A stretch of 63,165 nucleotides of DNA, counting the filler. It is 15 parts of 15 records of this genome, joined end to end, with 100 filler letters (N's around TTAATTAATTAA, not from the genome) between each part and the next. Parts side by side here need not be neighbours in the genome. Positions count along the whole stretch, not along the records: positions 24,624 to 30,082 come from SRR7504441_89217; 14 more parts are not named here. One strand, written 5' to 3'. The position numbers and the translations under genes were made by a program. Shown one piece after another: positions 1,613 through 48,520 of this stretch (position 1 is its first letter; each line of letters starts with the position of its first letter). The notes beneath the pieces were generated by a model, which saw only the letters and a program-made list of their open reading frames with translations, ran no database searches and had not been told where the DNA came from.

Positions 1613-3119
1613 CTAGGGGACATTGGCAAGGAATGCATGATTCAAAAGCTCAACTGCATCTGCTCGATTGTTGGGATCGACGTCCAAGGCCCGCTTGATG
1701 AAGTCAGTTGCGTCAGCAGTCAAACGTCGAGTGGCCTCATCTTGGTCCAACGCATTCCGGATCTCAACATTGGTGACAAATGGCAAGGCCTTAACCGCAA
1801 ACAGCGCGAGGTGTACAATGTGCGTACCTGGAATCCGGTAGGTCTTTCCCCCGACTCTTTTCTGTGTTAATGGGAAGCACCTTCCTGTTAAGAGTTTGTA
1901 CGCAGTGGTTCCAAACCCCCAGATATCGGCGGCATACAGAGGGAACGGATCAGTTGGATTGTTATGATTGTTATTACCTTCATTTCGTGGTAACTCGGGT
2001 GGCATGTGAACGTTATAAGGCATTCTGCGTTTCTGTCCAATGAGAACCTTGTCTCCCTCTTCGGGTGGTGATGTTACTGCCGAGAGACCGGTCAATTTCC
2101 ACTGACGGTCAGGGACTGGATAGTCAACTGAACCGGTTCGAGGTGAACGTCTGCCAATACCGAAGTACTGACAATGTACTGACAGTGGATTGTTGCACAC
2201 TGATCGAGCCATACCGAAGTCGATTAGTTTGACCGCATCCAGCTGAGCCGTAGTGAACATCCAGTTCTTGAGGTGCCCGTCCAAATGGGCGATCCCTGCT
2301 TTATGCAGATTTTTGAGCGCCTCGAGCATCTGCTTAAGAATCGGGGCGGCCTGCTGCACATTCCAGAACACCGGCCAAATCTGTGCACGGTTGTTCTCGA
2401 CAACACAGGGAGCCGTTCCCTCCACTGCCCAGATCGCTTCCGCAAGGTCTTTGTGCAGCTTCTCCAAGACAATGTGCTTTGCCGGTGGCAGCTTGCCTGA
2501 GGGGATGGCCAATTCATCCTCAACAAGCGCACCAATAGCCTGCTGCCTGGACCTGAGCTTGGCTACCATTTCTCTTTGCACGGCCTTAAAATCTTCTGTT
2601 TTTCCCTCAACCATTTTTTCCAAACTCCTCTGAACCATTGTAGACCTGACGACGTTTGGCACCGCTTTCTCGTTCAGATAATTTAAGATGGATGCCTCCC
2701 ACCACAAGCTCCAAATGTCGGACCGCTTCTTGAGAATTGCACGAGCAGGGTTGTCTGGCCTGTACCGCCTGTGTTCGTAGACGTATACGCCTACCTTGTA
2801 TACCCAGGTGGTAGGTAGACCAATCAATCCATTGTCAAAGAGCTTGTCATTGTTTTTGTCATATTTAACCATGTAGTTGCAGCCGAGCTTCCTACCTCCC
2901 TCTTCGAATTTGCACATCTGAGAGACACCCATGTGCACTTGGAGCAGCTCCGATGACTGGACCAGCGCACTCTCGAATGGACCCACCTGCGCCATCCGCC
3001 CTGATTCAGGGGCAATGTGGTCTGCTCTACGCACCTGGGCGGGCAGCAGCCGATTCTCTAGCGGTGCCCCCCGCCGGGTGGGCACTTGGACCAGCTTGAC
3101 CCCGGCTGGGGCACGACGA
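1613..3119 (-). CDS. Ser/Thr protein kinase-like protein (intronless, possibly 5'-truncated)
   Basis: Kinase subdomains IVLE, HLDGHLKN, KLIDFG, HMPPE, ADIWGFG and R..A.ELLNHAFL. The frame stays open to the contig edge. Confidence 0.85.
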
Positions 3120-3219
3120 NNNNNNNNNNNNNNNNNNNNNNNNNNNNNNNNNNNNNNNNNNNNTTAATTAATTAANNNNNNNNNNNNNNNNNNNNNNNNN
3201 NNNNNNNNNNNNNNNNNNN
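3120..3219. other. Artificial contig spacer N-TTAATTAATTAA-N, 100 nt. Also at 6511, 10298, 14081, 18184, 24524, 30083, 34810, 38331, 43048, 48021, 52816, 56394, 59701
   Basis: Identical layout 14 times. TTAATTAATTAA puts stop codons in all six frames. Confidence 0.98.
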
Positions 3220-6307: not shown

Positions 6308-6780
6308 AGTACAGTACCTCTTACTTAGTATACCGCTTGTACCTCAAGTGAAGTGATTGATTTAGTTGTGCAATCAAGATATATGTATAGACATGCGTAC
6401 AGTTGGCCCTCCCTGGTGGAAGAATTAAACCCCATATGTGTGTGATCCGACCGCGCTACAACGGACAACCGCGCTACAAAGACGACAGGCAGCTCGCGCT
6501 CATCGTGCGTNNNNNNNNNNNNNNNNNNNNNNNNNNNNNNNNNNNNNNNNNNNNTTAATTAATTAANNNNNNNNNNNNNNNNNNNNNNNNNNNNNNNNNN
6601 NNNNNNNNNNGATTTGCGTGCAATGGCAAGGCGGCCTGCGGAGCAGATGGCGTGGTAGGGCAGGTGCCGGCCTGATCTGGGGATGCCGGGGATGGAAATC
6701 GTGTAGATCAAGCATGATATGAACCTAGCATGGTACTTATGAATACTTTAGCCGGTAGTATTATCAAGTACCTTAAGGTA

Positions 6781-11149: not shown

Positions 11150-14080
11150 TTGTCGATTACCGCGGCTGGTTGCGGAATGCCCGTTCCTGACTGTCGACTG
11201 CTGTTTTTCCATTGTCGACAGCCGTTCCAGATTGTCGACTGTCACTTCCTACCTCGTGTTGCGTGCTAGTTAGCTGCATGACACCAGCAAGTACGTCGTG
11301 AAACCAATGAGTCTCAACTGCAATCTGGCACACTCTCATGTTAGCCTCAGTTTGAATCAGCGGACTCACTCGCTCTTGTGTCATCATGACAGAGGACAAA
11401 ACGCTGTCCGCATGCTTAGCCAACGCATCAGCGACAGCCTCGGGCGTGCCAGACTGGATCTTATCTTGGAACCAGGCAGACAGCGCCTGTGACGCGCTTA
11501 GGGCAGCCACTCGGCGTGTCAGACACCTCTGCCTGGTCCAGGTGCTCCGATTCTGGCATCTGCCCGCGCATTGCTTGCATGTGCGCGCTCCTAATGAGTT
11601 GATTGAACGCCTCGCACTGCCCCCCGCGCTCACATTGCCAGCCGACATAAGTCATTGAGCTAATAACGCCACCAAACCGCACCTTCTCTTTCAACTTGGA
11701 GGCATCAAGTGGCGCTGTGTCGCGGACCACTCGCGTGGTGGGCCTTGTCTTGGCTGGCTGCTGTCCCTGACTGGCTGCTGGCCTCACTGGCTGCTCTGCC
11801 TGCTGCGAGGGCTTCTGCCCGTTGCGCACCACAGCTCGACTGGCGTCGACATCTACGCCGGCCTCTATCGCCGCCATGCATGCATTGTACTCCCGGCCAC
11901 ACAGCTCTCGCCACTCGGCCGGGCTCAATTGATTGGGGTCATCTATCGGCTCAGCGCTTGGCTCTTCCCGGCTTGGAGTCTCTGATCCAGCATGCTGCGT
12001 AACTGGCTCAGTGGCTGGCTCGGTGGCTGCCGGCGGCTGCTCGCGCCCTCCCTCGAACCAACGCTCACCCTTGTTCTCCTTCTGCGGCTCATCGCCCCCT
12101 TTGAACCAGCCCGTATCCCCCTGCTGCGGGGTGTTGTCTCCTTTGGCCTGCGGCTGCGGCTCATTACGCCCCTCGAACCAGCCCTTGTCCTCCTTATGTG
12201 GCTTGTCGGCTCCCTTAAACCAGCCCTCATCCTGCTGCTCCGGTTCATCGCGCCCCCTGAACCACCCTTCCTTCTGTTCCTCCGACTGCTCGACAGCTGC
12301 ACCATCTGCACCGCTCCCACTGACTTGCGCTTGGTCGGTGGGCTGATCCGGCTGATCTTCGGTCTGTTCGACCGGCTGGCTCGGAGGTTCAGGCTTGAAC
12401 TTCCAGCCCACCGGCCGGACCCACTGTTCGGCCGCGGCTCGCCTGAGCACCCGCTTGATTGTCTCGCTGGGCAGCGTCCGGAAGAGCACCAGAGCGTCCA
12501 TTAGCGGCCAGTTGGGCAGCTCTGGCTCCACCTGCACCTCAGTCAGCGCACGGGCATGCACGAGCACACCTCGACTACGAACACGAGCGGCTGGAGGATG
12601 CTCCATTTCCACGGCTGGGCCGCGCACAGCTCTAGCGGCACCAACGGTTCCATCGCCAGCACGTCCTCGTCCGAACTGTCGCTCGGCCCTGTAATGAGCT
12701 CTGCCACAGGCACCATCACGATCTTGTCCCCATTCACCACCGGCACGGCCGGCTGGAGCGCCGGCCAATCCTCCCGCTTGGCTTTGAGCCTCCGGAGCGG
12801 AACCAGCGGCTTGTACTGAGCCCAGTTGCACATCTCGGTACCGGCCGCCACCGCCACGGGCACCATCGGCGCGTGCGCACACCACTGATCTGGTTCGAGC
12901 TCGCTGTCCAGCAGTGGCAGGCTGGTGCCGGCCTCCCTCCTGAACTTTGGCAGCCCGGGCGCGTACATGGACCGGTCAGCAAGCATCTCGGCGCCTTCCC
13001 GTGGGGGTGGGCCATTCTGCTCGAGCTTGCGCATCGAGTCGCCTTCGGGCCGCTGGAGCAGCGCGTCGACCAAGTGGACCATCACTTCAGGCCCGGCGCT
13101 GCTCTCACCTCGGGCGCTCGGAGCGTCACACAGCGCAGCGTGAAGGTAAGTCCAGGCGAGCAGCTGCTGTCGCTCCCAGGCCACCTTGGGCAGCGGCTGT
13201 CCGATCGCGTTCCGGGCGAGCCTCCCCTCCTCGGGATAGGTCGACAGCAGCTCGGACAGCCGGTCCAGCTCGCCGCGGGCCGCGCACCCGAACATGTGCT
13301 GCTGGACCACAGAGCAGGCGGCCGGGCGCGGCCGGGCGCGCAGCCGGGCAGGAGATTTCTCGCGGAGCTCTTTGGCCCACATGCGCAGGTCGCCGCCCGC
13401 CAAGGCCGGCGGGGCTCCCGGGCTGTCCTGATCGTTCGAGGGTAGCCTGTCGGACTGTTGTCCTGCCTGCTGGCTGGGTGTTGTGTGCAGAGACCGGAGG
13501 GGCTGACGCTTGGGAACGACGTGGAGCATCGCGAAGTGCAGGAAGGCCAGGATGCTCTGCCGTTGGGCTGGAGTCTCCTGCTGACAGAAGGCCTCCACCG
13601 GGAACTGCGGCCCTGCCCACTCCGGGACCCCGTGCTCCCAGGCTGAGCGGCACTGGATCAGGTTGTCAGTCCAAATGGCCTCGCTCCGACTGACCATCTT
13701 GTTGACGCGCACCGGCTGGTCGATGATCGCCCCGATGAACTCCGCCAGCACCAGTCCGTCGCGCAGCTGGGCCAGCGACTCGATCGGGCTCGCAATGTGC
13801 GAGCAGATCCACTCGAGCACTCGCTGCTCCACCTCGCCGTCGCTCCCACTGGGGTGGCTCGGCCTGGGCTGCTGGGCGGCGGGTGCCCGGCGGTCTTGCT
13901 GGCCGGGGGGTGGGCCTTGGAACCAGCGGGCTTGGCGGATCTCCTGGCAGAAGAGTATGAACTCGCGCTCATCGATCTGCTTGTTGTGGTCGATATCCAT
14001 CTTCTGGAAGACCTCTTCAAACATGCCCTGCGTCTCCTGCCCGATCGTGGTGCTGATCTTGCTCGGGAGCTCCAGCAGCG
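11150..14080 (-). CDS. Multidomain protein (EF-hand, calponin-homology-like, ankyrin-like, GWFxG repeats); multi-exon, 5'-partial, 3' end approximate
   Basis: EF-hand DIDHNKQIDERE; CH-like VLEWI...LRDGLVLAEFI; ankyrin-like AARGELDRLSELL. A 38-nt intron near 12532-12569 joins the 12543..14024 and 11461..12885 frames. Confidence 0.7.
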
Positions 14081-24523: not shown

Positions 24524-24757
24524 NNNNNNNNNNNNNNNNNNNNNNNNNNNNNNNNNNNNNNNNNNNNTTAATTAATTAANNNNNNNNNNNNNNNNNNNNN
24601 NNNNNNNNNNNNNNNNNNNNNNNCCCCCCCCCCCCCTGACCCACTAAAGTCTTACAAAGATCATGAAGGAATTACTTGTACAACTTAGTATCATATGTAA
24701 TAATTAACCACCAGTTCCAAGCGCTATTGACCGGTGACCAGCACCACTTACAAGTAG

Positions 24758-27700
24758 CTAGAAGCAGCCGCTGTTGTACTGGTCCCAGTTCCACTCCAGC
24801 GCCTCCCTCATCGGACTCTCGCGCTCATCGAGCTTTGGCAGGAAATAAACGTTCATTCTCTCAAGAAACCTTCGAGCGTAAAACCCGGGAGGAGCAGACG
24901 AAATGCTCTTCTTATCCGCTCGCATCACAAACGTCTGTAACCCACCGGTTAATTAACGGAAAATAACGGCCAGCCAAAGCGTGCTGTGCGGGCGGTTATT
25001 TTTAAGCTACTGGTAAGCACCTTGAAGAAGCGTTCTGCGCTCTTATTCCAGTTGTATCTGTACCCCAACAGTCAGCCCTACTAAGGGGTAGTGCTATGGA
25101 GCACTTTTGTGAAATGTCTATGATCCCGAAACAATAATAATGCTGCTCCTCCCCCAGCTGCGGGTGCCGCCCTTTGAAACAAGGATACCTGCACCCATTG
25201 TCACCCCGCCCCCGGCGGCAACCGACCTATCCCTCCGGCCTGCTAGCTTCTCCTGATACAGCGATTCCAGCTGCGGCGTGTACCCAAATCTGAGGCCAGA
25301 TCTCTCAACTGATGATTACAACGGACTAAAAGCGTGTCACCGGGCCACTAGCATGCTGTAATCCATGACGCCATGCTGCGCCAGAAACCTACGCGCTCAC
25401 TCAGCCCCGCGCCCGATGCTCGGCTGGATCACCTCACATCCTCAAAGCACTGCGTCATCAACTCCTCCTTGTCCTCCCGACCAAGCACCACAGCGCAATT
25501 ACTCATCGCCTCACCCGAGAAAGACTCATCTTCCGTTGGCGTGCTCCCATAATCGTCCCAGTAGTCTGCGTCGAGCAACGTACCGTGCCGCTCCCCTGGG
25601 CTGTGTCTTTCCCTACGATTGAACGTCGAGCCCTGCCACCAGTCAAACCCCGCCGGTTGGAATCGGTGCCTTTAAGTCATATTTCTGTAGCAGTCCGACG
25701 CTCGTCGGCGTGACGTTGCCCATCACAATAAAACCAAATTCTTTCTGGGCGTCCCGCATCTTAATTGTGTAAAGTCTGACTCAGCAACTCATCAGCTGAG
25801 GTTGTTATCATTACGAATGCTGTTACCCGTAGATCTTGAGTAAAAGTGAGTGCGGATGAGCTAGCATGAACTCAGTGTAGGAGCTGTACCCCGGGCAGTC
25901 AGCAATTTTGCCGTTATATTAACGATAATTGAAAGAAGAAGATGACTAATAATAAGGCGGCACCTGGCGAAAGAGGCCACGAAATCGAACTCCGAGTCTG
26001 TCATCAGCTTCACCTTGCCGCCCCCTCAACCCCCTGAACCGCCAGCCGCCCACACCAGGTGCCGCGAGTCGTGCGTGATGTACAACGGCATCCCCGACTT
26101 GCCTCCAAGATTAAACCGCTCGACCATCTGAATCACTTGCGACTGAGTTGTCCGGAACGACGACAAATACATCTGCTCACCGAATCAATTAACATATTAT
26201 CTATCCCGCGCACCTGATCCGCCGGCTCGATCCCGCGGACGTCGTTCAGTGTCGCCTTGCCGCCCGGGAGGGTCTCGACTTCAGACCACCGAAGCTCCTC
26301 GGTTGTGCGCTCAATTGGCGTTTGGTTAGAGGAATCTGCGAGGAAGTGCATTCGAAGGTTGTAGAACTTAGTGGCCTGGACGGCGGCGAACATGTACATT
26401 GGGCGGTACCTGCACACTCCCGATTAGGCAGGTGTTAAGCTATGGCATTTCCTTATTCGGCAGGTGTTAAGCTATGGCATGCCCTAATGAGGAAAGGTGT
26501 GTTACATCTCCTTGAGTGAGTAGAGCTTCTGCAGCTCCACGTGCAACCCCTCCTCATCCAGCCTATCCCCCACACTCTTCAGCACCCCGCCTCCTGCCAC
26601 TAACTCACTGCATCGTCAGCCGCTGGTTGCTCATCTCTTCCGATCCCAAGCTGCTACTCAGGAGAGCCGGATGAGACCCGGTGCTTTCTCCTATCTCGGC
26701 AATCTCTTCCGTGAGGCGGTCGATTTGCATCTGCAGATGCTGCAAAACGCCTCAGCCACAATATCGCTTAATTAACACATTTGTCCTAATCAGGCAACAG
26801 TCTATAGCTTAACAGCGCCTTCCTAATCGGGAACGCACCTGGCACAGCTTCTTCTGCGGATGCTCCGCGTCGCCGTCCTCCGGCCAATACAACCGCTGCC
26901 CGTCGTTATTGCCTAATTAGGAAGGTGGGACGTCACCTGCATCGCCGGGTGCAAGTGCTCAAGACTCGTAAAGTACTGACAAAACGGCAACGCGTCGCGC
27001 AGCGAGCAAAACTTGCTGTACCACAGCGCTCATTGCGTGCTGCCATACACACGCACCTGCAGCGGCCGGCGCGCTGGCCTTGGGTTTGGTCAAAGAGGGT
27101 CATGTCCCGTAGCCGACACACTTTCTCTATCCCATCGCCCACCTGCCCAGACCGGAGGCTTAATAAAATGGTGACACCATATTACAGAGGAACTCACCAG
27201 TCTGACCACTTCGGCTCTGAGAAAATAATCATTTGTCTGTTGGTAGCTCTCATTCTCAAGCCGAGATTTGAACCTGCAGAGGCCCGTTGCCTAATTAGGC
27301 AATTAGGGACGTCACATGTGCCCCTCCAGCCGTTTCCTTGCCCGAGTGGTCGGCGGGCTGTTGAGTGGAGCTCCCAAAGACATCCCAGTCACCCGCCGCG
27401 ATGACTGACTGCACAAACCCCCCGTGAGCTCAAATGATTCGAATTAAATGATGCTTATCATTATCGTAGCAGCCACCTGGCGCGGCCAATGAAAGGCTCA
27501 GATAGCCCTCTCTCCGGATCTGTGTCGGGGTCTTCTGGGCCGGGGCAGCAAAGCTCGACCACTCGCTCGTGCGCTACTAAGTACGCATACCTGGGTGGGC
27601 ACTCATCAGATAAAATATAATTGATGAGCAATACTTGAATCTTGTGAGCACACCAGGAGCGTAGGGGATCCACAAGAGCATGTGCAGCAGCGAACGCGTC

Positions 27701-30020
27701 ACCTGCGGATTAATTGAGTGTTAAGCTGGGATTTCCGTTATTCTAACGGACCATCATGAGTGAGACGATAATGTATATTGAGGGCACGGTGCATGCCGAG
27801 TAATCCAGCGCCAACGCCATGGCCATAACTCCGATACTCACCTGTTGGACGCTCAGCGCTCGAGCAATCAATTAGTGATTAGATCACCCAAAAGACGCCG
27901 TGAATCACCACAAATTTCTTTGAAAAGTCAAGCGTCTGCAAACCGTTAATTAATCAATAAATAATCCGTAATTAAATTGCCTGGACACGTGAGCTCTGAG
28001 AGAACTGGAAGCCTGCAACCGACATTCAGTCCGTTAAAGTCCGTTATTAATTGAGAGCTACCGAGGTCCAGCACAGCAACGGAGTGCTGCCAGACCCACA
28101 GCGAGTAGAGTACAATCGCCACCACCGGGAAATAAATAAAAAATGCGTTGGTGTAATTGAAAGTCCCAAAGAACGAGCCCTGTCCGCCCTCAAATCTCCC
28201 GAATCCGAATTCAAATCACCGTGACAAACTCGCCCGTGCTGGTGTCAAAATCCCTGTCGCTCAGCGTCCGAGCGTACCTGCCAGTTCCGTTGTTTTCGGT
28301 TGGCCAACGGATTTTCACCAGCAAAACATGAATTGTGAGAGCCCTTCGAGAGGCGAATTTGAGGTCCGAAACTCACCAAAAGTCTCTCCGACCTGTCAAA
28401 GTCGCTCCCAACGGCTGGCGGTTGGGGATAGGCACCATGCTGTAGAGCAGCAGGAAGCTGTAGGACCCGGCCACCCATAGCGCCACGCTCACATAGTACG
28501 GAGTCGAATTCTTGGGCCGAAACGGATTCCGAACATCCGAGATCAGAGCATGCGACACACTGAAATAAAAGCCCAGAGACGCCACCCATCCGCAGTGAAA
28601 GAACGACGAGTAGACGAAGCAATCGTTGGAGTGCCCGGTGAGGTACCATACCACGATCGTCAGGTACATAATCGTCTCACTTCCGATCATCCCGCAACAC
28701 ATGTCGAAACAGACCCGACGCTGCTCCTTCTTGGACAGAAACCAGGAGAAAAGTAACGGCAAATTGATCACCAGCGCGATGAAACAGGCGATACAGTACC
28801 ATCGTGCCGCGTTGTGCGCGTGGTCGGCGAATATGTCGTTGGTGATTTGAAACGCAAACGCTGCTGTTGGTTGGGCGTCGCAGTCAGAGCAATTTAGAAT
28901 AGACTCCGGCAAAGCTCGGGCGTTGAACGTGACAGTGCTCGGGCCTGCCGCCGCAACGGTCAGTCCGTTGGCAGTCGGTTGGGATGATTAAATGAGAGTT
29001 AACCTGTGTACGGGCACGTCTGGAAAGTCCCCGACATCGCCGTCATATCCACAAGCACCTGTCGGTTGGATTCTATTTATAGCCAATGTCCGTTGGGGCG
29101 CACCGCGGTCGGGTGCAGCCCGGTGTAGTAGTCGCACCAGAACGCCGGCTGGTCCTCGCCGGGTTTCACAAACTTCCTCCGCGACGGAGTCGACGACAAA
29201 TCGGAGCTCGAGACATTCCCGTAAACGTCGGTTGAATACGGCCGGACCACAACGTTCTCGCTGCCCCAACCGTCAGCCCTCTCCCAACGGATTTCCGTTA
29301 CCGGGCGAACCCCCAACCGCCCACGTGCTCGGCCCAGCTTGCCCAGTAATTATCGGGTGAGTCCCGCTGCTCAAAGAACAGCGCTCCCGTCATATCCGAG
29401 CCGCCCACCTCGATCTGCCCAAACAGCGCCGAGATTGCGGTTATGCACTCAACGTCCTGCAGGTTTCCGTTGTACGCGCTCCCGTCCGTCAAAACCCAAT
29501 CGGCCGTCCCATTCTGGGCCGTCTGCGCCCGCCGGAGCGACAGCCCCAGCGCGCTCAGCCTGTCCGTTGCCGTTACGCCGATTGCCGTTACCCGGGCGGA
29601 CCGCTCGGGGTAGCTGAGTCCGTTGGGGTCCGGCAGGTTGGCGCACGGGTTACAAACTGACAGCTCGAATCCCGCCCCGCCGGCCAGCTCGAGCTGCCGT
29701 TGGCGATCAACGGCCGTGGCCGCCGGTTGGGGATTGCCTGGAAGACCACGTCCGACCACTGGTCCCGCATCCGCGTGATCCGCCAGGCCTCCCCGCACCC
29801 CAGCCCCCACGGGTTCACATGCGCACTGCTCCCTCCACTGGCCACCGAGTACCTGCCTCAACGGTCAACGCCCCATCCCCGGCCGGCCGCGCCTGGGCCC
29901 GGCGGCCGCGGTGGCCGCGTTGTTGAGCCCCGGGCAATCCGGGGCCACCGTGCCCCCCGCGCTGGTCGGCCAGAGCGCCAACAGCACGACCACCGCCGCC
30001 AGCCGCTGCTGTGGCCACAT
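24758..30020 (-). CDS. GPCR-PIPK: signal peptide + ectodomain + 7TM receptor + phosphatidylinositol phosphate kinase; about 31 introns
   Basis: Hand-spliced: MWPQQRLAAVVVLLAL signal; TM helices from 28912 down; linker LRAEVVRL|VGDGI; PIPK motifs GGKSG, HL|VKLM, LLLKIYG|LY, FIVMGNV, YDLK|GS, FLAQHGVMDYSML, FGIIDISQ|KYNWNKSAERFFK, ISSAPPGFYARRFL; stop at 24758-24760. Confidence 0.88.
26418..26492. repeat. Intronic tandem repeat GGCAGGTGTTAAGCTATGGCAT x2 (period 32) interleaved with CArG-like boxes
   Basis: Identical 22-mers at 26427-26448 and 26459-26480, next to CCCGATTAGG, CCTTATTCGG and CCTAATGAGG. Confidence 0.9.
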
Positions 30021-30303
30021 TTCGCACCAACGTTAAAACCAACGGACGGATGTGAAGAGCGATGGCGCCGAGGACGAGGAAGNNNNNNNNNNNNNNNNNN
30101 NNNNNNNNNNNNNNNNNNNNNNNNNNTTAATTAATTAANNNNNNNNNNNNNNNNNNNNNNNNNNNNNNNNNNNNNNNNNNNNCCCCGACCCGGCGCGCTC
30201 CCAACCCAGAGCCGAGTGCCGCGGCTCAGGCCAAGCTCCGCCCGGGGCTGATTCCGTTGCCAGCGAGCGATTGCCCAGTGGTGACGCGCGGGTCGCGGGG
30301 CAG

Positions 30304-33300
30304 ATGAACACCACCCAGCTGACCCAGGAGACGCTTCCGTCGCAGACCCAGTCGCAACAGCCCACCCAGCAGCCGGATGAGCGGGGGGGCGATGGCGGGT
30401 TCGGCGGGCCGGAGGGGCAAGAGCTGCAGTTTATGGAGTTCAACACGCAGGCGTCGCAGGGGTACGAGGCCTACTCTGGGTTCACGCAGCCGATCGGGGG
30501 CGAGTCCCAGCCGGCCAACTGGGCGCCGTCGCAGGGCACCGCCCACCAGATGGTCTCGTCGGCGATGGCGCCGATGGGCAACTACAACTTTATGGAGTAT
30601 CCGAGCAGCGGGCAGCCCGGCGGCGACGACGGCTGGGGGCCGCAGGACTCGGATACGATGCAGGCCGATCTGAGCGGGATCGACGACATCTTTGACGACG
30701 AGGCTGACAACAACGACGACGACCAGGGGCCGTACCGGTACGAAGAGCTACCCGAGTGGGCCTGCCGGTACTGCGGAGTGCACTCGCCGGCCTCATGTGT
30801 GCGGTGCGGCGACGGGATGTGGTTCTGCAACGGCAAACTCTCGGCCTCCTCGTCCATCTCGTGCATCGTCAACCACCTGGTTCGGAGCAAGCAGAAGGAG
30901 GTCTGCATGCGGCTGCGGGCTGCAGGCTGAGCTGGGGGCAGGTGACTCTGCACCAAGACTCACCGCTGGGCGAGACGGTGCTCGAATGCTACCAGTGCGG
31001 GACCAAGAACTCATTCCTGCTCGGGTTCATCCCGGCTAAGACCGACTCTGTGGTGGTGCTGCTCTGCCGGGTGTGTCTGGACTCCGGCAACCTGGCCGAT
31101 ATGAACTGGGACCTGAGCCAGTGGCTGCCGCTGATAGAGAACCGCTCGTTCCTGCCCTGGCTGGTCAAGCCGCCCACGGAGGCCGAGACCCGCCGGGCGT
31201 GGCACCCTTCGATCCAGCAGATCAATAAGCTCGAGGAGCTCTGGAAGAGCAACCCGAACGCTAAAATCGAGGACTTGGACCGTCCAGGGGTGGACACCGA
31301 GCCCGAGCCGGTGCTGATGCGGTACGAGGACGCGTACCACTACCAGAACGTGCTCGGGCCGCTCACCAAGCTGGAGGCAGACTATGACAAGCGGATGAAG
31401 GAGGCGCAGACCAGGGACGGAATCACTGTGCGGTGCGCTGGCTGGCTGGGCGCGGGGCGACCGGCAGGCCAGGTGGGACATGGCCCTGAACAAGAAGCAC
31501 GTGGCCTATTTCCTGATGCCCACAGCCGACAACGAGCTGCGGCTTGTGCCAGGCGACGAGCTCAAGCTGAGGTACCCTGGCGACCAGCACAGGGCTCCGT
31601 GGGAGAGCCTGGGGCACGTGACAAAGCTCAACATGAACGACGAGGTCTGCCTGGAGCTGCGCGACAGGCATTGCCCGACAGAATGCAACCACGGGTTTGT
31701 TGTGGACTTTGTTTGGAAGTCGACATCATTCGACCGAATGCAGACCGCCATGTGCACGTTTGCCACGCAGGAGACCTCAGTGTCCGGCTACTTGTACCAC
31801 AGGCTGCTCGGGCACGACGTGGAGCAGCAGACTGTGCGCGGCAACCTGCCCAAGCGATACTCGGTCCCTGGGCTGCCGGAGCTCAACCACTCGCAGGTGT
31901 CGGCGATCAAATCCGTGCTCCAGCGAGGCATGAGTCTGATCCAGGGCCCGCCCGGCACCGGCAAGACTGTCACCTCCGCCTCGATCGTGTACCATCTGGC
32001 CAAGATGGGCCAGGGCCAAGTGCTGGTGTGCGCTCCGAGTAACGTGGCTGTCGACCAGTTGGCCGAGAAGATCCACTCGGCTGGGATCAAGGTCGTGCGG
32101 CTTTGCGCCAAGTCGAGGGAGTCTGTGGGCTCGAGCGTGGAGTTCCTCACGCTTCACTATCTGGTGAGGCACCTGGACAAGCTGGTCGAGAGAGGCGAGC
32201 TGCACAAGCTCCAATTGCTCAAGGACGAGCAAGGCGAGCTGTCAGCATCGGACGAGAAGAAATACAAGAAGCTCAAGCGCCAGACTGAGGAGGAGATCCT
32301 CCACTCGGCAGAAGTGATCTGCTGCACCTGTGTCGGGGCGGGCGACTCCAGGTTGGCACAGCTCAGGTTCAGACAAGTTTTGATCGACGAGTCCACCCAG
32401 GCCACTGAGCCTGAGTGCCTTATTCCGATAGTGCTTGGGGCCAAACAGCTGGTGCTGGTGGGCGACCACTGCCAGCTCGGCCCAGTGGTCATGTCCAAGC
32501 AGGCGGCTCGGGCGGGCCTGTCCCAGTCGCTGTTTGAGCGGCTCGTGCTGCTCGGCGTCCGGCCGATCCGGCTCCAAGTGCAGTACCGGATGCATCCAGC
32601 CCTCTCCGAGTGGCCTTCCAACACATTCTACGAGGGCTCCCTCCAGAACGGGGTCACAGCCAGTGAGCGGATCCAGCACTTTGTCGACTTCCAGTGGCCA
32701 GTTCCGGACCGGCCGCACTTTTTCTACAACTCATTAGGCCAGGAGGAAATGTCAGCTACAGGCACTTCATATCTGAACCGGACAGAGGCAGCTAATGTCG
32801 AGAAAGTGGTGACTCAGCTGCTGCGGTGCGGCGCCGTGCCCGCGCAGGTGGGCGTGATTACACCCTACGAGGGCCAGCGTGCGTACATTGTGTCGTATAT
32901 GGCCCGGAACGCGGCGCTTCGGCAAGCGCTTTACCAGGAGATCGAGGTGGCCTCTGTCGACTCGTTCCAGGGCCGCGAGAAGGATTACATCGTCGTGTCG
33001 TGTGTGAGGTCGAACGAGCACCAAGGAATCGGCTTTTTGAGCGATCCACGCCGGCTGAACGTGGCCCTCACCCGTGCCAAGTATGGTGTTGTAATCCTGG
33101 GCAACCCAAAGGTGCTCTCCAAGCACCCGCTGTGGAACAACCTGCTCACCCACCTGAAAGACGGCGACTGCGTGGTCGAAGGCCCTCTCAATGACCTCCA
33201 GACCTCAAAAGTCCAATTCCACAGGCCGCGCTCGAATTATTACGCGCGGCGCTTCTTGCCAGGGGGTAACATGGACAGGCCGTCCAACTCGGATGACCAG

Positions 33301-43147: not shown

Positions 43148-46100
43148 ACATTGCAGCTCCATGTAGTCACGCCTGGCTGCTGTGCAAACTCTCGGACTCC
43201 CTGCTGCAACTTCTGCGACGCTCTGCTTAAGGCCTTCATTGGTGCTGTCGAATCGTGACCTTTCACTGTTTGCATACGTGAGGTGGCGCGGGTAATACCC
43301 AGCTGAGCCAGCCACAAATGTTGCTGCTTGGCAAAAGCAGGTGTTTGAAGAGTCTGGATCGGAACTGGGGCCACAGAAGATAGTTGCGGGCAGTATGCAA
43401 TTGAATCCGACACTCTCTCGAGGCGATCGGCCATCAATTGCGCCGCTGCAGCCTGAAACCCTCTTAAACAGCCTAAATCCTTCTCGAGACTGCTGGACGG
43501 ACGAGCTTCGAAAGACATTCTAGGGTCGCATGCAGCCTCTGGAGCAATGCATGACTGGAGCGTGCCTTGTAAATTTGGCTTCGAGGGACACGTCCATGTC
43601 GACGCATTAGTGCACTTGCCTAGAGCTTGCCGCGCCTTCTGCTCAGTCATGTTCGCTTTCCTCAGCCTATAGTGTGTGTGGACCACTTGAGCCTCCAGCC
43701 CAGAGACCCACTCCTGCAGCTGGTCTACTGTTTGTTCAGCAGCTTTAAGTTTGACTGCCATGGCTCTGGGTGTCATCTGGCCACTTTGAATGTGGAGGCG
43801 ATTCTTTCTCATGATCCAGGCGTTGATGTCGCGCTGCTCCATGCGCAGGTCCAGCGTGCGAACAGCAACTTCAAAGTTGTACAAAGGCTCCTCCACGGCT
43901 GCGCCCTGGTAGATGTCGGGTTGATAAACGACCTCATCATCGCCAAGAGCCTCAGATGCTTGCTTGGCAAAGCTGGCATACCGTTGAAGTAAGTCAGCAA
44001 ACCGTGCTGATGAGTCTTCAAACAGCTGCTGCGAGCATTGGGCAGATAGACTCACTGAAGGGATTGCCGCGAAGTGAAGTACCATTGGGCTTGAGCCTTT
44101 CATATCAGATGTTGCCAGTAGCGATTTCATGGCTACTTGCTGGGTTTGGTCCTCCCGGCACGTCCAAGAGGAAGCATTCAGCTCAAAAACCCTCTCTGGT
44201 CCAGGATAGGTTTCAGCCTTTCCGATCGACGAAGTGTTTTTAAGCCAGGCGCCAGCTTCTTTGATGGACAAAATAGCTCCATCGACGTGCTTGCCAGCCC
44301 GGCCCTGCAAGTCTGCCATTGCGCTGGACACAAGCGATTGCCGCTCTGCCGCATCTGTTTGGTTCTTCTCAAATAATTCGATTGCCGCCTTTGCGCGATT
44401 CATCGACAGAATGACCTCGTTAACTACTTCAGTGGGCGGCGCAGCAGCGAGAGCTTCGGACTGTTTTGCAGCAATCGCTAACACTTGCTGTGCATACAAG
44501 CGTGCAGCCTCAGCCTCCAGCTCCAGTGCACACTTGGGTGTCAGGCCTGGCAGCTTGGCTCGCACCCTGGCAGCGCTGGGAGCATACATAGCTGTAACAC
44601 CCTTGCCATCACCGATCAACACCCCGCGATTCAGGCCACGTTTGCCATGAATTGGAGGTGTCGATTCGAACCCGAGGATATGTCCGGATTGAAGCATGAC
44701 TGACATCTGTGCTTGTATCGCTGGCTTAGAGGTGCAAGTCCAACCAGCCTTGTCAGCGCGCCATGTCAATTTCTCGGACCATGGTGCCCACCCATCAGTG
44801 CGCTTCCCTCGTAGCCTAACTTCATACAGCTCGCCTGGCATCAATCCTGAGATTTCCTCATCAACAACCGTGACGCTGATGTTTTTGTCCTGAAAGGTAC
44901 GTGTGCTCAGGGAACTTCCATCAATCCGCTGCCACTCAATCTGATGCTGGGTGTAGTCCTTCTGGCTGACGTTCCAAGCCAGCCTGATTGACCCTGGCTT
45001 GACAGGCGGTAGCTGGTTAGGTAGTGGAATAGTGTTGGTATCATCTGGTTTGCTTGGATGAAACCCTTTTAGCTTGTCGATCTCCCGGTTGAGGGCCTGC
45101 TTGACTACACTCTGGCTGCCCAAGAGGGAGTCCTTATCTCTGCGCAATGCCTCAAGCTGCTCATCTTGGTCGGCCTGATTCTGCTTAGCTTGCTTGACCC
45201 TCAAGCTCGCGACCATTTCGGCCCTGCGTGCGTCTTGGAGGTGCTCGTCGGCAACATCAAACGCAGCCTGCAGGTCGTCGACCTTGAGACCAGTCGCAGT
45301 GTACTTAATGAGCTTGCTGTGGTACTTGGCCTGCCGCTCCTTCTGCAACAAATCCGATTCTATGCGCCCCTCTTCTACTCGCCGATTCACTAGATTATTG
45401 ATCTGCTGTGTCACTACCTGCTGCTTTAGACGCAGCTGCTCGACCTCTTCTCGTTCGTAATCAACTTCCAAGTTTATTCGTGCCAGCTCAGGGCCAAGAG
45501 CATCCATGCCGGGAGTTGAAGGTGTGTTGGATCCAATCAAGTATCCAGCTTTGATCTGAATCTCGGCAGCCTTTGATTTCACTTGTTGGGCCTGCACAGT
45601 ATGTTTTCTACTTTGAAGGAAAGATATCTTTCGAGAGGTATTCTTGATGCGCTGAACCAAGTCAGCCAATTGCTCGCTCAGCACTGCCTCTTGGCCCTCC
45701 GCCTCGCCTTGCTTGCGGACAGCTGTGGCCACCTCTTGCTGCTCAGGCTCGTCACTGACCAGCTGTGCCGTCCTCTGGAGTGCAGATGCTGTGATTGCAC
45801 TTTGGTTTTGCGCTGCAGTAAATTTGTCCTCGAGACCACGGTAGTGCTCTTGTAGTTGCTGCCTCTTTTGGGTAGCATCTTCAAACTTTGTGCGGCGCTC
45901 AGCTAGCATCATAGCCTTCCAGTCCAATTGCTCGGTCACAGCTTTGCTTGAGTTGCGAACAACCTGATGCTGTGTTTCTAATACCCTTTTTACCTTTGCT
46001 GCCTTGGCTTCCCACGCAGCTTGGACTGTCTCAGCGTCTGCAAGGACAGCCTTGGCCTTATGTACCACACTCTCCTGCAGCTGTAATTCCTCTTTGAGCT

Positions 46101-48020
46101 GGTCCAGCCGGTCAAGATTTGCGGAGGCAGTGTTGTGAATAGCTACGTGTAAGTTATCCAAGGCCTTGAAGAGATTGGAACCTTTTGATAGTTGGAGGTT
46201 GCCCACTTTCTCCCCAAACTCGAGCCGAACAGCAAGCTGATCAAGTGAAGCTGCAAACTTGTCTGCTGCCGCTAATCCAAGGTCCAAGCGACAGCTGGCG
46301 TCCAGGAGTGCCCTATCCTCGGCTCTAAGCCAGACCACACCGTTCCTCTGACGAAGCACACTAATATCTGCCACTTGGCTACTATCAGTAGCACAAGTCC
46401 AGACGCTAGCAGCTGAGATGGTGCCTGAGGCAGGCGGGTAAAGTTTCTTGCGGACGGTTGCAGACGCCTGTGCGGCAGTATTGACGGCTTCCTGCAGAGT
46501 CTTATCAGTAGAGCTCCGGATTGCCCATGTCTCAGTCATCCTAGAGGTCTTCGCAATGATGGAGACTGCTTTCCTTGTCGCGTTGGTGGTACCTCCACTC
46601 TGACGCAACGCCCGAGTCACACCGCGTAGGCCTGCTTGCATCTTAATATTTGCAAGCACAGTAATACGACAGGCCGACATGTGGGTCCTCAGTCCTCGCA
46701 AAGCCTTGGCAAAGCTTCGTGCTGATACCGCCTGGAATTCGTTTTCACATGTCTGTGTTGCAGGAGCATTCAGTTGCGACTCCATCACAATTCCACCACT
46801 GCAGTCATTTTCGATCCTGAATTTGATGACACCTTTATGTGCCTTGTCTTTACTGCATGCCCAGTGATTGACCTCAGACCATGGTGCTGGCGTGCCATGT
46901 GCCTTCACCACTTGCCACTTATGACTCCGCAGCTGCTGTTGTCTCTGGTGGAGTGCCTCAAGGGATTGGATCATTTGGGAGGTTGCTGTCTGCATCATCT
47001 GGGCTTCTTTGAGCTCAACCATGCGATCAGACCGACTGGCGTTCAGGCCCTGCGTCAACTGGCGCACAGTGTCAGCTGCCGCATCGCAGATTGCGACTTG
47101 GACAGGAGCTCCTACCTTGTGGGCCACTTCTGTCGCAAGATCAGACAGGCGGGTCTTTGGCAGACCAACTGATTGGCAGGCCCTTCCTGAGATGGTATCA
47201 AGGCTGTTACTGAACCGCTTGGCAGCAGCCTTCATGAAATCTACTTTGCAGCCATTGCTCATTGGAGTACTAGCAAGGCTCTTGTTTCCCGAAAGCTGTG
47301 CCAATGTGTTCATCCGGGTGCTTCCATCGCAGCCTTGAGACATTGTTACAATGGGGAACCCACAGGTTTTGTTTTCTGTCCACTGCTCGTAGGATTGCTT
47401 TGGTGTTGCTCGCATCACCAGCGATGCTGCCTTCCCAGCGCTAGCAACAGCATCCTTTTGCCAGGTCGATTCCTGTAGATCGTCTGCTACAGCGTTGGCC
47501 TCGTCTCTTGCTGATGATGCTATTGCATGAAGAGTTTCTGCATAGTTTAGATCTGTGGTAATCTCGCTGACAAGGGCCCTAACCTTGGTTGTTGAGGATA
47601 AAGAAAAGAGGCGAGGACAGTCCACCTGCTGGTATTCGTTGAGTGCTCTTTTTAGTTTTGATGCGGCCTCTTTGCCCAACTCGCGCTGGCACTGCGACGG
47701 AGATGCAGCCTGAGTCGGACCAAACACGGCTGATGCATGGCCAGTTGCAGGATCGACAGAGAATGAGCCCACCCACCATGCCACACTGCTGAGTCCTATC
47801 TTGGCTATCCCTCTAGCCTCGACGTGCACTGAGCTACAAAACGCACCACTTAGCCGGATCTCAGCCGCAAAAGCACTATTGGTGCTACAATTCCATACCA
47901 ATGGTGGCATCTGGACACCAACTGAACTGATCTGAAGGGCAGGCACATCCACGTGACGGAGCAGCTGCTCGTCGATCTCATTGAGGCCGGGTTGTGCGGC
48001 TGTGCTGTTCGTCTCTGGTG
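43148..48020 (-). CDS. Very large intronless protein (>1600 aa, partial at both ends): repeated W-x-C domain, coiled coils, one FN3 domain
   Basis: Frame open across the whole contig. FN3-like IRLAW...GLMPGELYEVRLRG...WS; about 8 W-x-C...C modules. Confidence 0.8.
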
Positions 48021-48134: not shown

Positions 48135-48295
48135 CCAACCGACACCCAACGGACACCCAACCGCAGACGATCCCTTCTTCATGCGTTGCCATGTGCCGAA
48201 ACCGAATATCCCAATATTCTAAGCCCTAGGCACACAAACCGAATATCCAATATCCCAAGACGATAAAAACCGAATATCCAATATTCCCAATATTC
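48135..48295. repeat. Short degenerate repeats upstream of the PP2A B'' gene: CCAAC(C/G)G x3 and AACCGAATATC(C)CAATAT x3
   Basis: Read directly at about 48135-48166, 48200-48219, 48237-48254 and 48268-48295. Confidence 0.75.
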
Positions 48296-48520
48296 AGTGC
48301 CTTATTACTACGACTCAGCTGATCAGCGAGAGGGTTGGTTGCACGATTCAAAGAGACGGTCATAAAAAAAAAGCCAAAGAAAATCAGCCCGGCTGAGTGT
48401 CTTTGAAACGCGCCCATTGCTGTCGGCCTCGCCTGGCGTTACCAGCGCCGCGGCGGCAGGGGCGGTTCAGGAGGTCGGCCTTCCCAGCAGGATCGAGCCC
48501 GATGAGCGGAGCAAGCCATC

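What the first reader, a model, noticed from the sequence alone, without database searches (positions are those of the whole stretch)
24945..29714. Introns of the GPCR-PIPK gene repeatedly carry inverted YAACGG/CCGTTR pairs
Seen: otherwise unrelated introns contain the same motif as an inverted pair. Examples are GCCGTTG-gcgat-CAACGGC (29696-29714), CAACGG-attt-CCGTTA (29285-29300), CAACGG-tcagt-CCGTTG (28954-28970, enclosing the putative branch point), TCCGTTG...CAACGGA (28286-28311) and TCCGTTA-ttc-TAACGGA (27734-27750). Direct copies occur at 28028-28046 and 24945-24970. The motif is not prominent in introns of TM9SF, TFIIE-beta, UPF1 or ALDH. Established: YAACGG is the MYB/MSA element. Inference: this is either an intragenic array of MYB sites, RNA hairpins that aid splicing, or relics of an intron-generating element.
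Basis: partly seen in the sequence, partly recalled or inferred. Interest (0 to 1): 0.75.

Follow-up and report, generated by a model that had tools for sequence, protein, structure and literature searches.

The report
Sibling mini-introns sharing palindromic words
One gene of an otherwise intron-poor microbe is cut by about thirty tiny introns that share short mirror-image DNA words, which look more like leftovers of a small intron-making repeat than like gene switches or splicing aids.

Summary
All seven listed word pairs are at the stated coordinates. The window is 15 small contigs joined by N linkers, and the finding fills one of them, 24624-30082. YAACGG occurs there 31 times against 5.5±2.2 in shuffles. 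In my 30-intron model it occurs 19 times against 1.6±1.3. Non-coding DNA and 21 control introns of the other contigs show no excess.

Three points need correcting. The introns are not "otherwise unrelated": they share further 8-10-letter words far beyond shuffles, in both orientations. Inverted pairs are no commoner than direct ones, 5 against 4, although spacing prefers 9-11 nt. YAACCG is enriched as well.

The gene also stands out. It has about 30 introns of 37-99 nt, while neighbouring genes have 0-4.

My best reading, at about 0.45, is a DNA-level family of short tandem or fold-back repeat modules carried by sibling mini-introns, that is, introner-like relics. MYB sites and splicing hairpins are less likely. 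Formal introner criteria (BLAST similarity, target-site duplications) are not met. No RNA data, genome or relatives could be reached. The scan noted sibling introns before on other DNA (note e1-645247).

The parts
24624..30082 (.). One assembly contig between two N44-linker-N44 joints. It holds the whole finding.
   Evidence: N runs and per-contig motif density.
24758..30020 (-). Coding region of a 7TM plus PIPK-like gene. My hand model has 31 exons, 30 introns of 37-99 nt (median 47) and 1210 codons with no internal stop. The N-terminal part (30020-29300) and the linker (27600-27270) have alternative models.
   Evidence: Pfam PIP5K matched two exons: 25670-25774 (E 1.7e-5, profile 66-99) and 24761-24934 (E 0.01, profile 262-286). 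Hydrophobic segments.
29694..29749 (-). Candidate 56-nt intron holding the inverted pair 29696-29714. It lies in the uncertain N-terminal region, and my 30-intron model counts it as exon E2.
   Evidence: A longer imperfect inverted repeat, 29668-29686 with 29717-29735, surrounds it.
29560..29601 (-). Candidate in-frame 42-nt intron (GT..CAG) with three sense YAACGG copies. It could equally be coding.
29261..29301 (-). Intron I2, 41 nt, with the inverted pair 29285-29300. Its 3' end closely matches that of I29, and a 9-nt direct repeat matches the upstream exon.
   Evidence: (17 nt, 94%, to I29).
28945..29003 (-). Intron I4, 59 nt. The inverted pair 28954-28970 encloses a CTGAC branch-like word. 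There are two tandem copies of an 11-nt unit at 28961-28982.
   Evidence: (fold z -2.7).
28278..28318 (-). Intron I6, 41 nt, with the inverted pair 28286-28311 and a YAACCG copy between the arms.
27703..27751 (-). Intron I11, 49 nt. The inverted pair 27734-27750 starts one base after the first letter of the 5' splice site.
   Evidence: (z -2.2).
28013..28061 (-). Intron I8, 49 nt, with a direct doublet of a 10-nt unit at 28028-28046.
24935..25020 (-). Intron I30, 86 nt, with a direct doublet (antisense to the gene) at 24954-24969.
27274..27315 (-). Intron I14. It shares its first ten letters and a 13-14-nt word built on a 10-nt perfect palindrome with intron I17 (26896-26936).
   Evidence: 14 nt, 100%, E 0.006.
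26410..26505 (-). Intron I20, 96 nt. It contains a tandem duplication of a 32-nt unit (26418-26449 and 26450-26481, 88% identical).
26740..26838 (-). Intron I18, 99 nt. It carries an inverted 15-nt copy (26818-26832, 93% complementary) of the I20 unit.
48135..48163 (+). On another contig, 15 nt from its start: 2.6 tandem copies of an 11-nt unit. This is nearly the same unit as in I4, and the array ends in ..CAG.

Best explanation
YAACGG and CCGTTR are the conserved core of a small family of short DNA repeat modules. The unit is about 10-11 nt and also occurs with C in place of the first G of GG (YAACCG). It is found as tandem doublets or triplets and as fold-back (inverted) doublets with 3-5-nt loops.

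The mini-introns of this one gene share these and at least two other modules, in either orientation. They are therefore sibling introns at the DNA level.

The most likely origin is a miniature palindromic, intron-forming (introner-like) element, or a few such elements. It multiplied locally and gave one gene about 30 introns in an intron-poor genome. Slippage and fold-back copying then made the tandem and inverted doublets. On this reading the inverted pairs are repeat arms. They are not selected MYB sites or splicing hairpins.

Shown here: the enrichment, its restriction to this gene's introns, strand symmetry, shared modules, and local tandem and inverted duplications.
Inferred: that the modules arrived together with the introns, and that the element was mobile.
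For: 1. The word is about 12-fold enriched in this gene's introns only. Counts are 19 against 1.64±1.33 in the introns, 4 against 2.5 in exons outside the uncertain E2, 2 in 928 nt of control introns, and 0.97 per kb in ORF-free DNA of the other contigs.
2. Strand symmetry. There are 10 sense and 9 antisense copies in introns. Shared 8-mers are 51 in the same orientation and 55 inverted. This speaks for DNA and against an RNA signal.
3. The introns share words beyond shuffles. For k=8, 50 intron pairs against 16.4±3.9 (largest 30). For k=10, 9 against 1.1±1.0 (largest 4).
4. Alignment A1 shows a common box in I3, I4, I5, I6, I25, the 56-nt candidate intron and the contig-12 end.
5. Local duplication is visible. 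There are 10- and 11-nt tandem doublets, a 32-nt tandem duplication in I20 and its inverted copy in I18.
6. Perfect 6-nt inverted repeats number 19 against 5.4±2.8, and direct repeats 15 against 5.9±3.3. Control introns have 2 against 3.1.
7. In the 41-nt introns I2 and I6 the modules take 16 and 24 nt. Without them the introns would be 25 and 17 nt. The shortest of the 51 introns seen is 35 nt. Late insertion into working introns is therefore unlikely (inference).
8. Intron density is about 8.3 per kb of coding sequence here. Other contigs carry uninterrupted ORFs of 800-1650 codons.
9. Codon use fits the other contigs, so the contig is not foreign.
10. The same 11-nt unit in tandem lies at a second locus, at a contig edge. 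Close YAACSG pairs elsewhere number 6 against 2.3±1.4, with a shuffle fraction of 0.015. By my reading, five of the six lie in non-coding flanks.
11. Published introner families have median lengths as short as 30 nt, and many lack TSDs or TIRs (Gozashti et al. preprint, passages).
Against: 1. No target-site duplications. Only 1 of 30 introns has a flank repeat of 7 nt or more, and mismatched controls reach that in 5.4% of cases.
2. Intron-to-intron BLAST matches are only 11-17 nt, with a best E of 0.006 in a 63-kb database. About as many equally good hits fall on unrelated DNA. The published introner criterion of E ≤ 1e-5 fails.
3. The inverted repeats are internal and adjacent, not terminal.
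4. Word sharing is not significantly concentrated among neighbouring introns (permutation p 0.23), so local hopping is not shown.
5. There are at least three different module sets, so one element cannot explain all 30 introns. Seventeen of the 30 lack YAACGG.
6. Nothing shows that the introns are young. No orthologue was found.
7. The gene model has no RNA support.
8. The second-locus copy is not significant by BLAST alone (E 0.15).
Confidence: 0.45

Rival explanations
1. The introns are old and were retained, and small repeats spread among them later. On this reading the gene sits in a low-recombination or otherwise special region where introns were not lost. Slippage, template switching and ectopic repair then seeded and copied short tandem and inverted words between pre-existing introns. 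The words have no function and did not create the introns.
For: - Tandem and inverted local duplications are directly visible.
- There are no TSDs.
- Several unrelated palindromes occur besides the YAACGG ones. Eleven of 30 introns have a 6-nt inverted repeat, and only 5 of these use this word family.
- Published parallels: genes in low-GC regions of Mamiellophyceae and Pelagomonas carry many more and shorter introns, and the Pelagomonas authors suggest retention (passages).
Against: - The modules occupy 16-24 nt of 41-nt introns that are already near the 35-nt minimum, so they cannot simply have been added.
- The same word in 13 of 30 introns needs an efficient copying route.
- The contig is not clearly low in GC. 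It is 0.555, and the other contigs range from 0.527 to 0.652. Exon GC3 is 0.715.
- Sharing is not concentrated among neighbours.
Confidence: 0.22
2. The words form an intragenic array of binding sites for a MYB-type or other sequence-specific DNA-binding protein. They were placed in introns because the exons are constrained, and they regulate this gene.
For: - YAACGG matches the MYB core (recalled knowledge).
- Orientation is free.
- Neighbour spacing of 9-11 nt, about one helical turn, holds in 6 of 9 cases against 1.57 expected, P 0.0011.
- One copy lies 20-30 nt upstream of the ATG.
- Paired copies lie in non-coding flanks of four other contigs.
Against: - YAACCG is enriched about 5-fold as well and alternates with YAACGG inside the same tandem arrays. 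From recall, MYB consensus sites need G or T at that position.
- ORF-free DNA of the other contigs shows no excess, at 0.97 per kb.
- Upstream regions show no consistent motif. Five of the 15 upstream stretches printed carry one.
- The 9-11-nt spacing is equally what minimal hairpin loops and 10-11-nt tandem units give.
- Other palindromic words that are not MYB-like are shared by the same introns.
Confidence: 0.12
3. The signal acts at the RNA level. The sense copies are branch-point-like words (YAAC, near the CTGAC used elsewhere). The antisense copies pair with them in small hairpins that present or mask the branch point and so tune the splicing of very short introns.
For: - In I4 the loop holds CTGAC.
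- TAAC fits the TRAC core of the branch words seen in control introns.
- Gene-7 introns fold slightly better than shuffles, with mean z -0.71, p 0.002.
- I4 and I11 have z below -2.
Against: - Only 4 of the 13 motif-bearing modelled introns have both orientations.
- Copies show no preferred place in the intron.
- Stems are 6-7 bp. In I2 the longest stem leaves a 2-nt loop.
- The difference from control introns is not significant (p 0.12).
- Direct doublets are about as common as inverted ones.
- Twenty-one control introns of the same size do without such words.
- Pairing would cover part of the branch word in I4 (inference).
Confidence: 0.1
4. The pattern is due to chance, base composition, or an assembly or contamination artefact.
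For: The assembly is very fragmented, and the contig starts with a run of 13 C.
Against: - None of 500 or 1000 dinucleotide shuffles comes near the observed counts.
- Codon use fits the other contigs.
- Thirty GT/GC..AG interruptions restore one 1210-codon frame.
Confidence: 0.02

Closest known systems
Introner elements and introner-like elements (Micromonas IE-A and the 67-nt IE-C; survey of 548 families by Gozashti et al.)
   Same: Both are introns that resemble one another at unrelated positions and raise intron number sharply. Short families are known: median length 30-654 nt in the survey, and IE-C averages 67 nt with a conserved GACTGACG branch box. Many families lack TSDs or TIRs. Opposite-orientation similarity is known (passages).
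   Different: Here the similarity is only modular, 11-17 nt, and fails the E ≤ 1e-5 rule. There are no TSDs. Copies are concentrated in one gene. There are several module sets. Genome-wide copy number is unknown.
BOC1 introns of Mamiellophyceae, and intron-rich genes of low-GC regions in Pelagomonas
   Same: In both, the genome is compact and intron-poor, yet particular genes are split by many small introns of 40-65 nt (passages; Pelagomonas).
   Different: BOC1 introns are AT-rich (below 43% GC) and are described as having no conserved motifs or folds. Here intron GC is 0.53, only 5 of 30 introns are at or below 0.43, and motifs are shared. The ordinary introns of this genome are just as short, 35-60 nt. 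The taxon and the chromosomal context are unknown.
Hairpin introners of Amoebophrya
   Same: Both are short repeated introns with inverted repeats that can form hairpins, and both are likened to MITEs (passages).
   Different: In Amoebophrya, 8-20-nt repeats pair the two intron ends, 3-5-nt direct repeats sit at the boundaries, and many splice sites are non-canonical. Here the arms are adjacent and internal, boundaries are GT/GC-AG, and there are no boundary repeats.
MYB binding site / plant MSA element (YAACGG core)
   Same: The hexamer is identical, and copies occur in free orientation and in clusters.
   Different: Here the words sit in introns of one gene and not in promoters. The YAACCG variant is co-enriched. 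Other non-coding DNA shows no excess. The MYB consensus is recalled, not taken from a call.
Sibling introns noted earlier in this scan (Naegleria contig, note e1-645247)
   Same: In both, short introns of one gene are copies of each other and a core fragment lies outside the gene. Genome-wide mobility could not be shown in either case.
   Different: That case concerned two introns with a longer shared core. Here there are about 13-15 introns with short words and about 30 introns in all. I did not re-examine that note.

Membership tests
Introner family (operational definition of Gozashti et al.) | Intron-to-intron BLAST similarity at E ≤ 1e-5 reaching the intron ends | tested here: not met
   The best hit between introns is 14 nt at 100% identity, E 0.006. 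Matches are 11-17 nt long. Criterion taken from passages.
Introner family (operational definition of Gozashti et al.) | At least 4 similar introns at non-homologous positions | tested here: inconclusive
   Word sharing exceeds shuffles, and 6-7 sequences share one box. This is short-word similarity and lies almost entirely within one gene.
Introner family (DNA-transposon type) | Target-site duplications and terminal inverted repeats | tested here: not met
   One of 30 introns has a flank repeat of 7 nt or more, against 5.4% in mismatched controls. The inverted repeats are internal, not terminal. According, many published families lack both features.
Introner family | Many copies genome-wide, intergenic copies, and presence/absence between strains | not testable with these tools
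   No genome is held. One candidate copy lies at 48135-48163.
MYB / MSA cis-element | YAACGG core with G or T (not C) at the fifth position | tested here: inconclusive
   The contig has 31 YAACGG but also 16 YAACCG, 2.9 per kb against 0.55 per kb elsewhere, and both occur in the same arrays. The consensus is recalled.
MYB / MSA cis-element | Bound by a MYB protein and acting on transcription | not testable with these tools
   No binding or expression data. No RNA run was listed.
BOC1-type introns (Mamiellophyceae) | Many introns shorter than 75 nt in single genes of an intron-poor genome | tested here: met
   The gene has 30 introns with a median of 47 nt, and 25 of the 30 are shorter than 75 nt. 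Neighbouring genes have 0-4 introns.
BOC1-type introns (Mamiellophyceae) | AT-rich (below 43% GC) and located in the low-GC part of an outlier chromosome | tested here: not met
   Intron GC is 0.528, and 5 of 30 introns are at or below 0.43. Chromosome context is unknown. Definition.
GPCR-PIPK | C-terminal PIPK catalytic domain | tested here: inconclusive
   Two exons hit Pfam PIP5K in the right order, at 24.7 and 15.6 bits. Each is below the 27-bit whole-protein cut-off. The spliced protein could not be handed to the tool.
GPCR-PIPK | N-terminal seven-helix receptor domain | tested here: inconclusive
   A hydropathy scan (threshold 1.5) found clear hydrophobic segments at residues 330-348, 432-450 and 504-529, then a continuous hydrophobic block at 548-598, after a signal-peptide-like start. 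I read two weaker segments between 370 and 420 by eye, which gives about seven. There was no Pfam hit. There were no named relatives: 0 hits, and 6 weak hits, of which I scanned 5 against Pfam and found no GPCR or PIPK family.
GPCR-PIPK | Central LRxGI motif (van den Hoogen et al. 2018) | tested here: not met
   The modelled protein has no exact LRxGI. Motif from passages. The linker model is uncertain.

The most novel reading that the evidence does not exclude
The introns are ultra-short (about 40-60 nt) introners derived from a Tourist-like (PIF/Harbinger-type) miniature element. The repeated YAACGG words would be the subterminal binding sites of the element's own Myb-like helper protein. 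Local hopping would have loaded one gene with about 30 introns in an otherwise intron-poor genome. If so, these would be among the shortest transposon-made introns known, with a recognisable protein-binding code.
Probability: 0.08. Interest if true: 0.85.

Novelty: new variant of a known kind. Interest (0 to 1): 0.5.

Why it matters
How introns are gained is an open question, and introners are the one mechanism seen at genomic scale. Here a single gene has about 18 times the intron density of its neighbours. Its minimum-length introns are built from shared palindromic and tandem modules.

If the reading holds, this would be a compact test case for three things:
- intron birth by very small elements;
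- local proliferation within one gene;
- the lower size limit of a transposon-made intron.

It would also warn that MYB-like words in introns can be repeat relics. If instead the introns are old and the words spread later, the locus shows how slippage and fold-back copying shape minimal introns. Either outcome can be decided once a genome and RNA-seq of the organism are at hand.

Tried and rejected
External data
- Whole genome: none is held.
- Sequencing runs: none was listed and no RNA holder was listed, so I could make no statement on expression or splicing.
- Earlier findings: nothing on this genome and nothing by sequence. The word search gave only parallels.
- Relatives of the 7TM exon: 0 hits by the word-indexed search among longer proteins. 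There were 0 related loci in metagenome contigs. The all-against-library search gave 6 weak hits, E 1e-10 to 4e-4. I scanned 5 of the 6 against Pfam and found no informative family.
- DNA pattern of the 11-nt doublet in metagenome contigs: 14 loci. All 14 share only the 20-25-nt pattern, and none has further likeness to the window. I treat them as chance.
- Rfam on the contig: 0 matches at E ≤ 1.

Taxon
- UPF1's best hits are land plants at 61-77% identity, with nothing closer.
- The protein atlas was uninformative.
- Chloropicon (introns 152 nt) and Pelagomonas (about 210 nt) do not fit the roughly 40-nt introns.
- The taxon is left unresolved.

Gene models
- My ab initio gene finder was too noisy on the other contigs.
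- Of 82 introns it predicted, I kept 21 by eye. These lay on the strand of the long ORF, were 35-80 nt long, and were needed to keep the frame. I dropped the other 61. The control set is therefore subjective.

Hypotheses tested and dropped
- Target-site duplications: no signal.
- Neighbour bias of word sharing: not significant.
- A general promoter motif: no excess in ORF-free DNA and no consistent upstream site.
- U12-type or mirtron readings: rejected by inspection, because the 5' splice sites are ordinary and the stems are only 6-7 bp.

Literature
- The searches 'CAACGG' + 'introns' (listing only) and 'introner' + 'palindrom' + 'short introns' turned up no description of this motif in intron arrays.
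- Supplements of the introner papers were not opened and may list short families that bear on this.

Full report
WHAT THE WINDOW IS
The 63,165 bases are 15 contigs of 3.1-6.2 kb. They are joined by a 44-N run, a 12-letter linker and another 44-N run. The finding lies entirely in the seventh contig, 24624-30082 (5459 nt, GC 0.555). No whole genome is held and no sequencing run was listed. Everything below therefore rests on the window, on searches of public collections, and on papers.

THE GENE
On the minus strand an ATG at 30020 opens a signal-peptide-like start, and the frame ends at 24758. I read the three frames, used a small splice-aware dynamic program of my own as a guide, and curated by hand. 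The model has 31 exons and 30 introns. Twenty-nine are GT-AG and one is GC-AG, lengths are 37-99 nt with median 47, and the model translates into 1210 codons without a stop.
- Two exons match Pfam PIP5K in the right order: 25670-25774 at E 1.7e-5 (profile 66-99) and 24761-24934 at E 0.01 (profile 262-286).
- Upstream lie several hydrophobic segments, about seven by my reading.
- The 7TM exon has no named relatives, and an exact LRxGI motif is missing.
- "GPCR-PIPK-like" is therefore reasonable but not proven.
- The model has no RNA support. The N-terminal 700 nt and the linker have alternative models.
- Two further stretches look like introns: 29694-29749 (56 nt) and 29560-29601 (42 nt, in frame).

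CONTRAST WITH THE NEIGHBOURS
The other contigs carry uninterrupted reading frames of 800-1650 codons and only a few introns. My gene finder was noisy on them. From its 82 predicted introns I kept by eye 21 credible ones, of 35-78 nt, median 40, GC 0.66. This gene has about 8.3 introns per kb of coding sequence. Its exon codon use correlates 0.70-0.83 with 11 of 14 long ORFs elsewhere, where the mean among those ORFs is 0.66. The contig therefore belongs to the same genome as most of the others.

CHECK OF THE OBSERVATION
All seven listed pairs are at the stated coordinates.

| Region | YAACGG observed | Shuffle expectation |
|---|---|---|
| Whole window | 74 | 43.7±6.4, largest 57 of 100 |
| Contig 24624-30082 | 31 | 5.5±2.2, largest 13 of 500 |
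| 30 modelled introns | 19 | 1.64±1.33, largest 8 of 1000 |
| All exons | 11 | 3.0±1.7 |
| Exons other than E2 | 4 | 2.5 |

- Thirty-one of the 74 window hits lie in this contig.
- Seven of the 11 exon hits lie in the uncertain 'exon' 29302-29852. Five of those seven fall into the two extra candidate introns.
- Thirteen of the 30 introns carry the word, against 2 of 21 control introns (Fisher p 0.012).
- Nine of the first 11 introns carry it, against 4 of the last 19 (p 0.002).
- ORF-free DNA of the other contigs has 0.97 per kb, which is the expected level.

1. Orientation is random. In introns there are 10 sense and 9 antisense copies. Among pairs no more than 30 nt apart, 5 are inverted and 4 direct.
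2. Spacing is not random. Six of 9 neighbour distances are 9-11 nt, against 1.57 expected, P 0.0011. That distance matches both a minimal hairpin loop of 3-5 nt and the 10-11-nt tandem units that Tandem Repeats Finder reports at 28028-28046 and 28961-28982.
3. YAACCG is enriched too, with 16 copies in this contig against 32 in the other 57.7 kb. It alternates with YAACGG inside the same arrays.
4. The introns are not otherwise unrelated.
   - They share 8-mers in 50 intron pairs against 16.4±3.9, and 10-mers in 9 pairs against 1.1±1.0.
   - Shared 8-mers are about equally often in the same orientation (51) and inverted (55).
   - I14 and I17 share their first ten letters and a 13-14-nt word around a perfect 10-nt palindrome.
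   - I2 and I29 share 16 of 17 letters around the branch word.
   - I20 holds a 32-nt tandem duplication, and I18 an inverted copy of that unit.
   - I3, I4, I5, I6, I25, the 56-nt candidate and the start of contig 12 share one box upstream of the word.

RNA STRUCTURE
- Gene-7 introns fold slightly better than dinucleotide shuffles, with mean z -0.71, p 0.002. Three or four of the 30 fall below -2.
- Control introns give mean z -0.22. The difference between the two sets is not significant, p 0.12.
- Perfect 6-nt inverted repeats with loops of 0-12 nt number 19 against 5.4±2.8 (largest 18 of 500). Direct repeats number 15 against 5.9±3.3. Control introns have 2 against 3.1.
- Eleven of the 30 introns have such an inverted repeat, and only 5 of these use the AACGG/CCAAC words.
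- Palindromy and local duplication are thus general traits of this gene's introns, not of one word.

TESTS FOR A TRANSPOSON ORIGIN
- Flank repeats of 7 nt or more occur in 1 of 30 introns (I2, 9 nt). Mismatched 5'/3' pairs reach that in 5.4% of cases, so there is no target-site-duplication signal.
- BLAST between introns gives only 11-17-nt matches with a best E of 0.006. Equally good hits fall on unrelated DNA.
- Word sharing is not significantly biased towards neighbouring introns (p 0.23).

OUTSIDE THE GENE
- At 48135-48163, 15 nt from the start of another contig, lie 2.6 tandem copies of nearly the same 11-nt unit as in I4. The array ends in ..CAG.
- Close pairs of YAACSG elsewhere number 6 against 2.3±1.4, with a shuffle fraction of 0.015. 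By my reading, five of the six lie in non-coding flanks.
- In contig 7 there are 17 such pairs against 0.5±0.8.
- A scan of metagenome contigs with the doublet pattern gave 14 loci. All 14 share nothing beyond the pattern.

INTERPRETATION
Three observations point to a DNA-level repeat family rather than a strand-specific RNA signal:
- the strand symmetry;
- the sharing of several unrelated modules in both orientations;
- the visible tandem and inverted duplications.

In the 41-nt introns I2 and I6 the modules fill 16 and 24 nt. Without them the introns would be far below the 35-nt minimum seen among 51 introns. The modules were therefore most likely part of these introns from the start (inference). 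Together with the roughly 18-fold excess of introns in this one gene, this favours sibling introns made by, or from, a miniature palindromic element. I put this reading at about 0.45.

The main rival, at about 0.22, is that the introns are old and were kept in a special region, as proposed for Pelagomonas low-GC regions and seen in the BOC1 regions of Mamiellophyceae (passages). On that reading, slippage, template switching and ectopic repair spread the words later.

A MYB-type site array gets about 0.12. The helical spacing and free orientation speak for it. The co-enriched YAACCG, the lack of any excess in other non-coding DNA, and the company of other palindromic words speak against it. That MYB sites require G or T at that position is recalled knowledge, not taken from a call.

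Splicing hairpins get about 0.10. They fit I4 and I11, but not the nine of 13 motif-bearing modelled introns that have only one orientation.

COMPARISON WITH WHAT IS KNOWN
- Introners. The closest kind is the introner or introner-like element. Published families reach median lengths as low as 30 nt, and only 49 of 130 families show TSDs and 72 of 177 show TIRs (Gozashti et al. preprint, passages). Micromonas IE-C averages 67 nt (Verhelst et al. 2013, passages). Membership is not established here, because the E ≤ 1e-5 similarity rule and the TSD test both fail, and copy number cannot be counted.
- BOC1 introns. The many-small-introns feature is met. The AT-richness is not, and BOC1 introns are described as motif-free.
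- Amoebophrya introners. These pair the two intron ends and carry boundary repeats, which these introns do not.
- PIF/Harbinger. The Harbinger3_DR Myb-like protein binds a 9-bp subterminal motif (passage). This makes the boldest reading conceivable, namely that the words are binding sites of a transposon's own Myb-like protein. Nothing here tests it.
- Huff et al. 2016 on the introner mechanism is recalled only and was not seen.

VERDICT
The feature is real, strongly non-random and specific to one gene. It is best filed as a new variant of introner-like sibling introns, with the origin unproven. The taxon is unresolved: UPF1's best hits are land plants at 61-77% identity and nothing is closer. 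A genome plus RNA-seq of the organism would decide between the readings.

Noticed in passing
window 1-63165 (joints at 3120-3219, 6511-6610 and so on): The window is not one locus. It is 15 contigs of 3-6 kb joined by N44, a 12-letter all-frame stop linker, and N44. Neighbourhood arguments across joints are therefore meaningless.
   Followed up: yes
24624-30082 compared with all other contigs: This gene has about 30 introns in 3.6 kb of coding sequence. Other contigs hold uninterrupted ORFs of 800-1650 codons and 0-4 introns per gene. The intron-density contrast is at least as striking as the motif.
   Followed up: partly
25633-25669 (-): A 37-nt GC-AG intron (I25) is needed to join the two halves of the conserved YDLK|GS stretch of the PIPK domain. 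It shares an 11-nt word with the 56-nt candidate intron at 29720-29730.
   Followed up: partly
control introns, e.g. 12532-12569, 30901-30941, 61971-62005: The ordinary introns of this genome are extremely short (35-60 nt, median 40) and GC-rich (0.66). About half have a CTGAC-like branch word starting 15-21 nt before the 3' end.
   Followed up: partly
contigs 1-3119, 43148-48020, 52916-56393: The long ORFs on these three contigs have much lower GC3 (0.55-0.58) than the others (0.62-0.87). Their codon-use correlation with the gene studied is only 0.41-0.47. They may come from another genome compartment or another organism.
   Followed up: no
48190-48300: Just downstream of the 11-nt array there are several copies of a roughly 20-nt AT-richer repeat and a 9-nt tandem doublet (48278-48295) in apparently non-coding DNA.
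   Followed up: no
8697 (-) and 8782 (+): Two divergent genes have their first ATGs only about 85 nt apart, which points to a very compact genome.
   Followed up: no
24624-24636 and 48745-48756: There are runs of 12-13 C, one at the contig start and one inside contig 12. These may be sequencing or assembly artefacts.
   Followed up: no
29668-29735: An imperfect 19-nt inverted repeat (79% complementary, 30 nt between the arms) spans the candidate intron end and the first 27 nt of the next modelled exon. It encloses the 29696-29714 hairpin and an 8-nt palindrome.
   Followed up: partly
ORF-free segments of the other contigs: TTAATT/AATTAA is the most over-represented 6-mer in non-coding DNA throughout the window, with 8 copies in 4.1 kb ORF-free against 2 in the ORF-covered part. 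The AT-rich palindromes in this gene's introns are therefore partly a genome-wide trait.
   Followed up: partly
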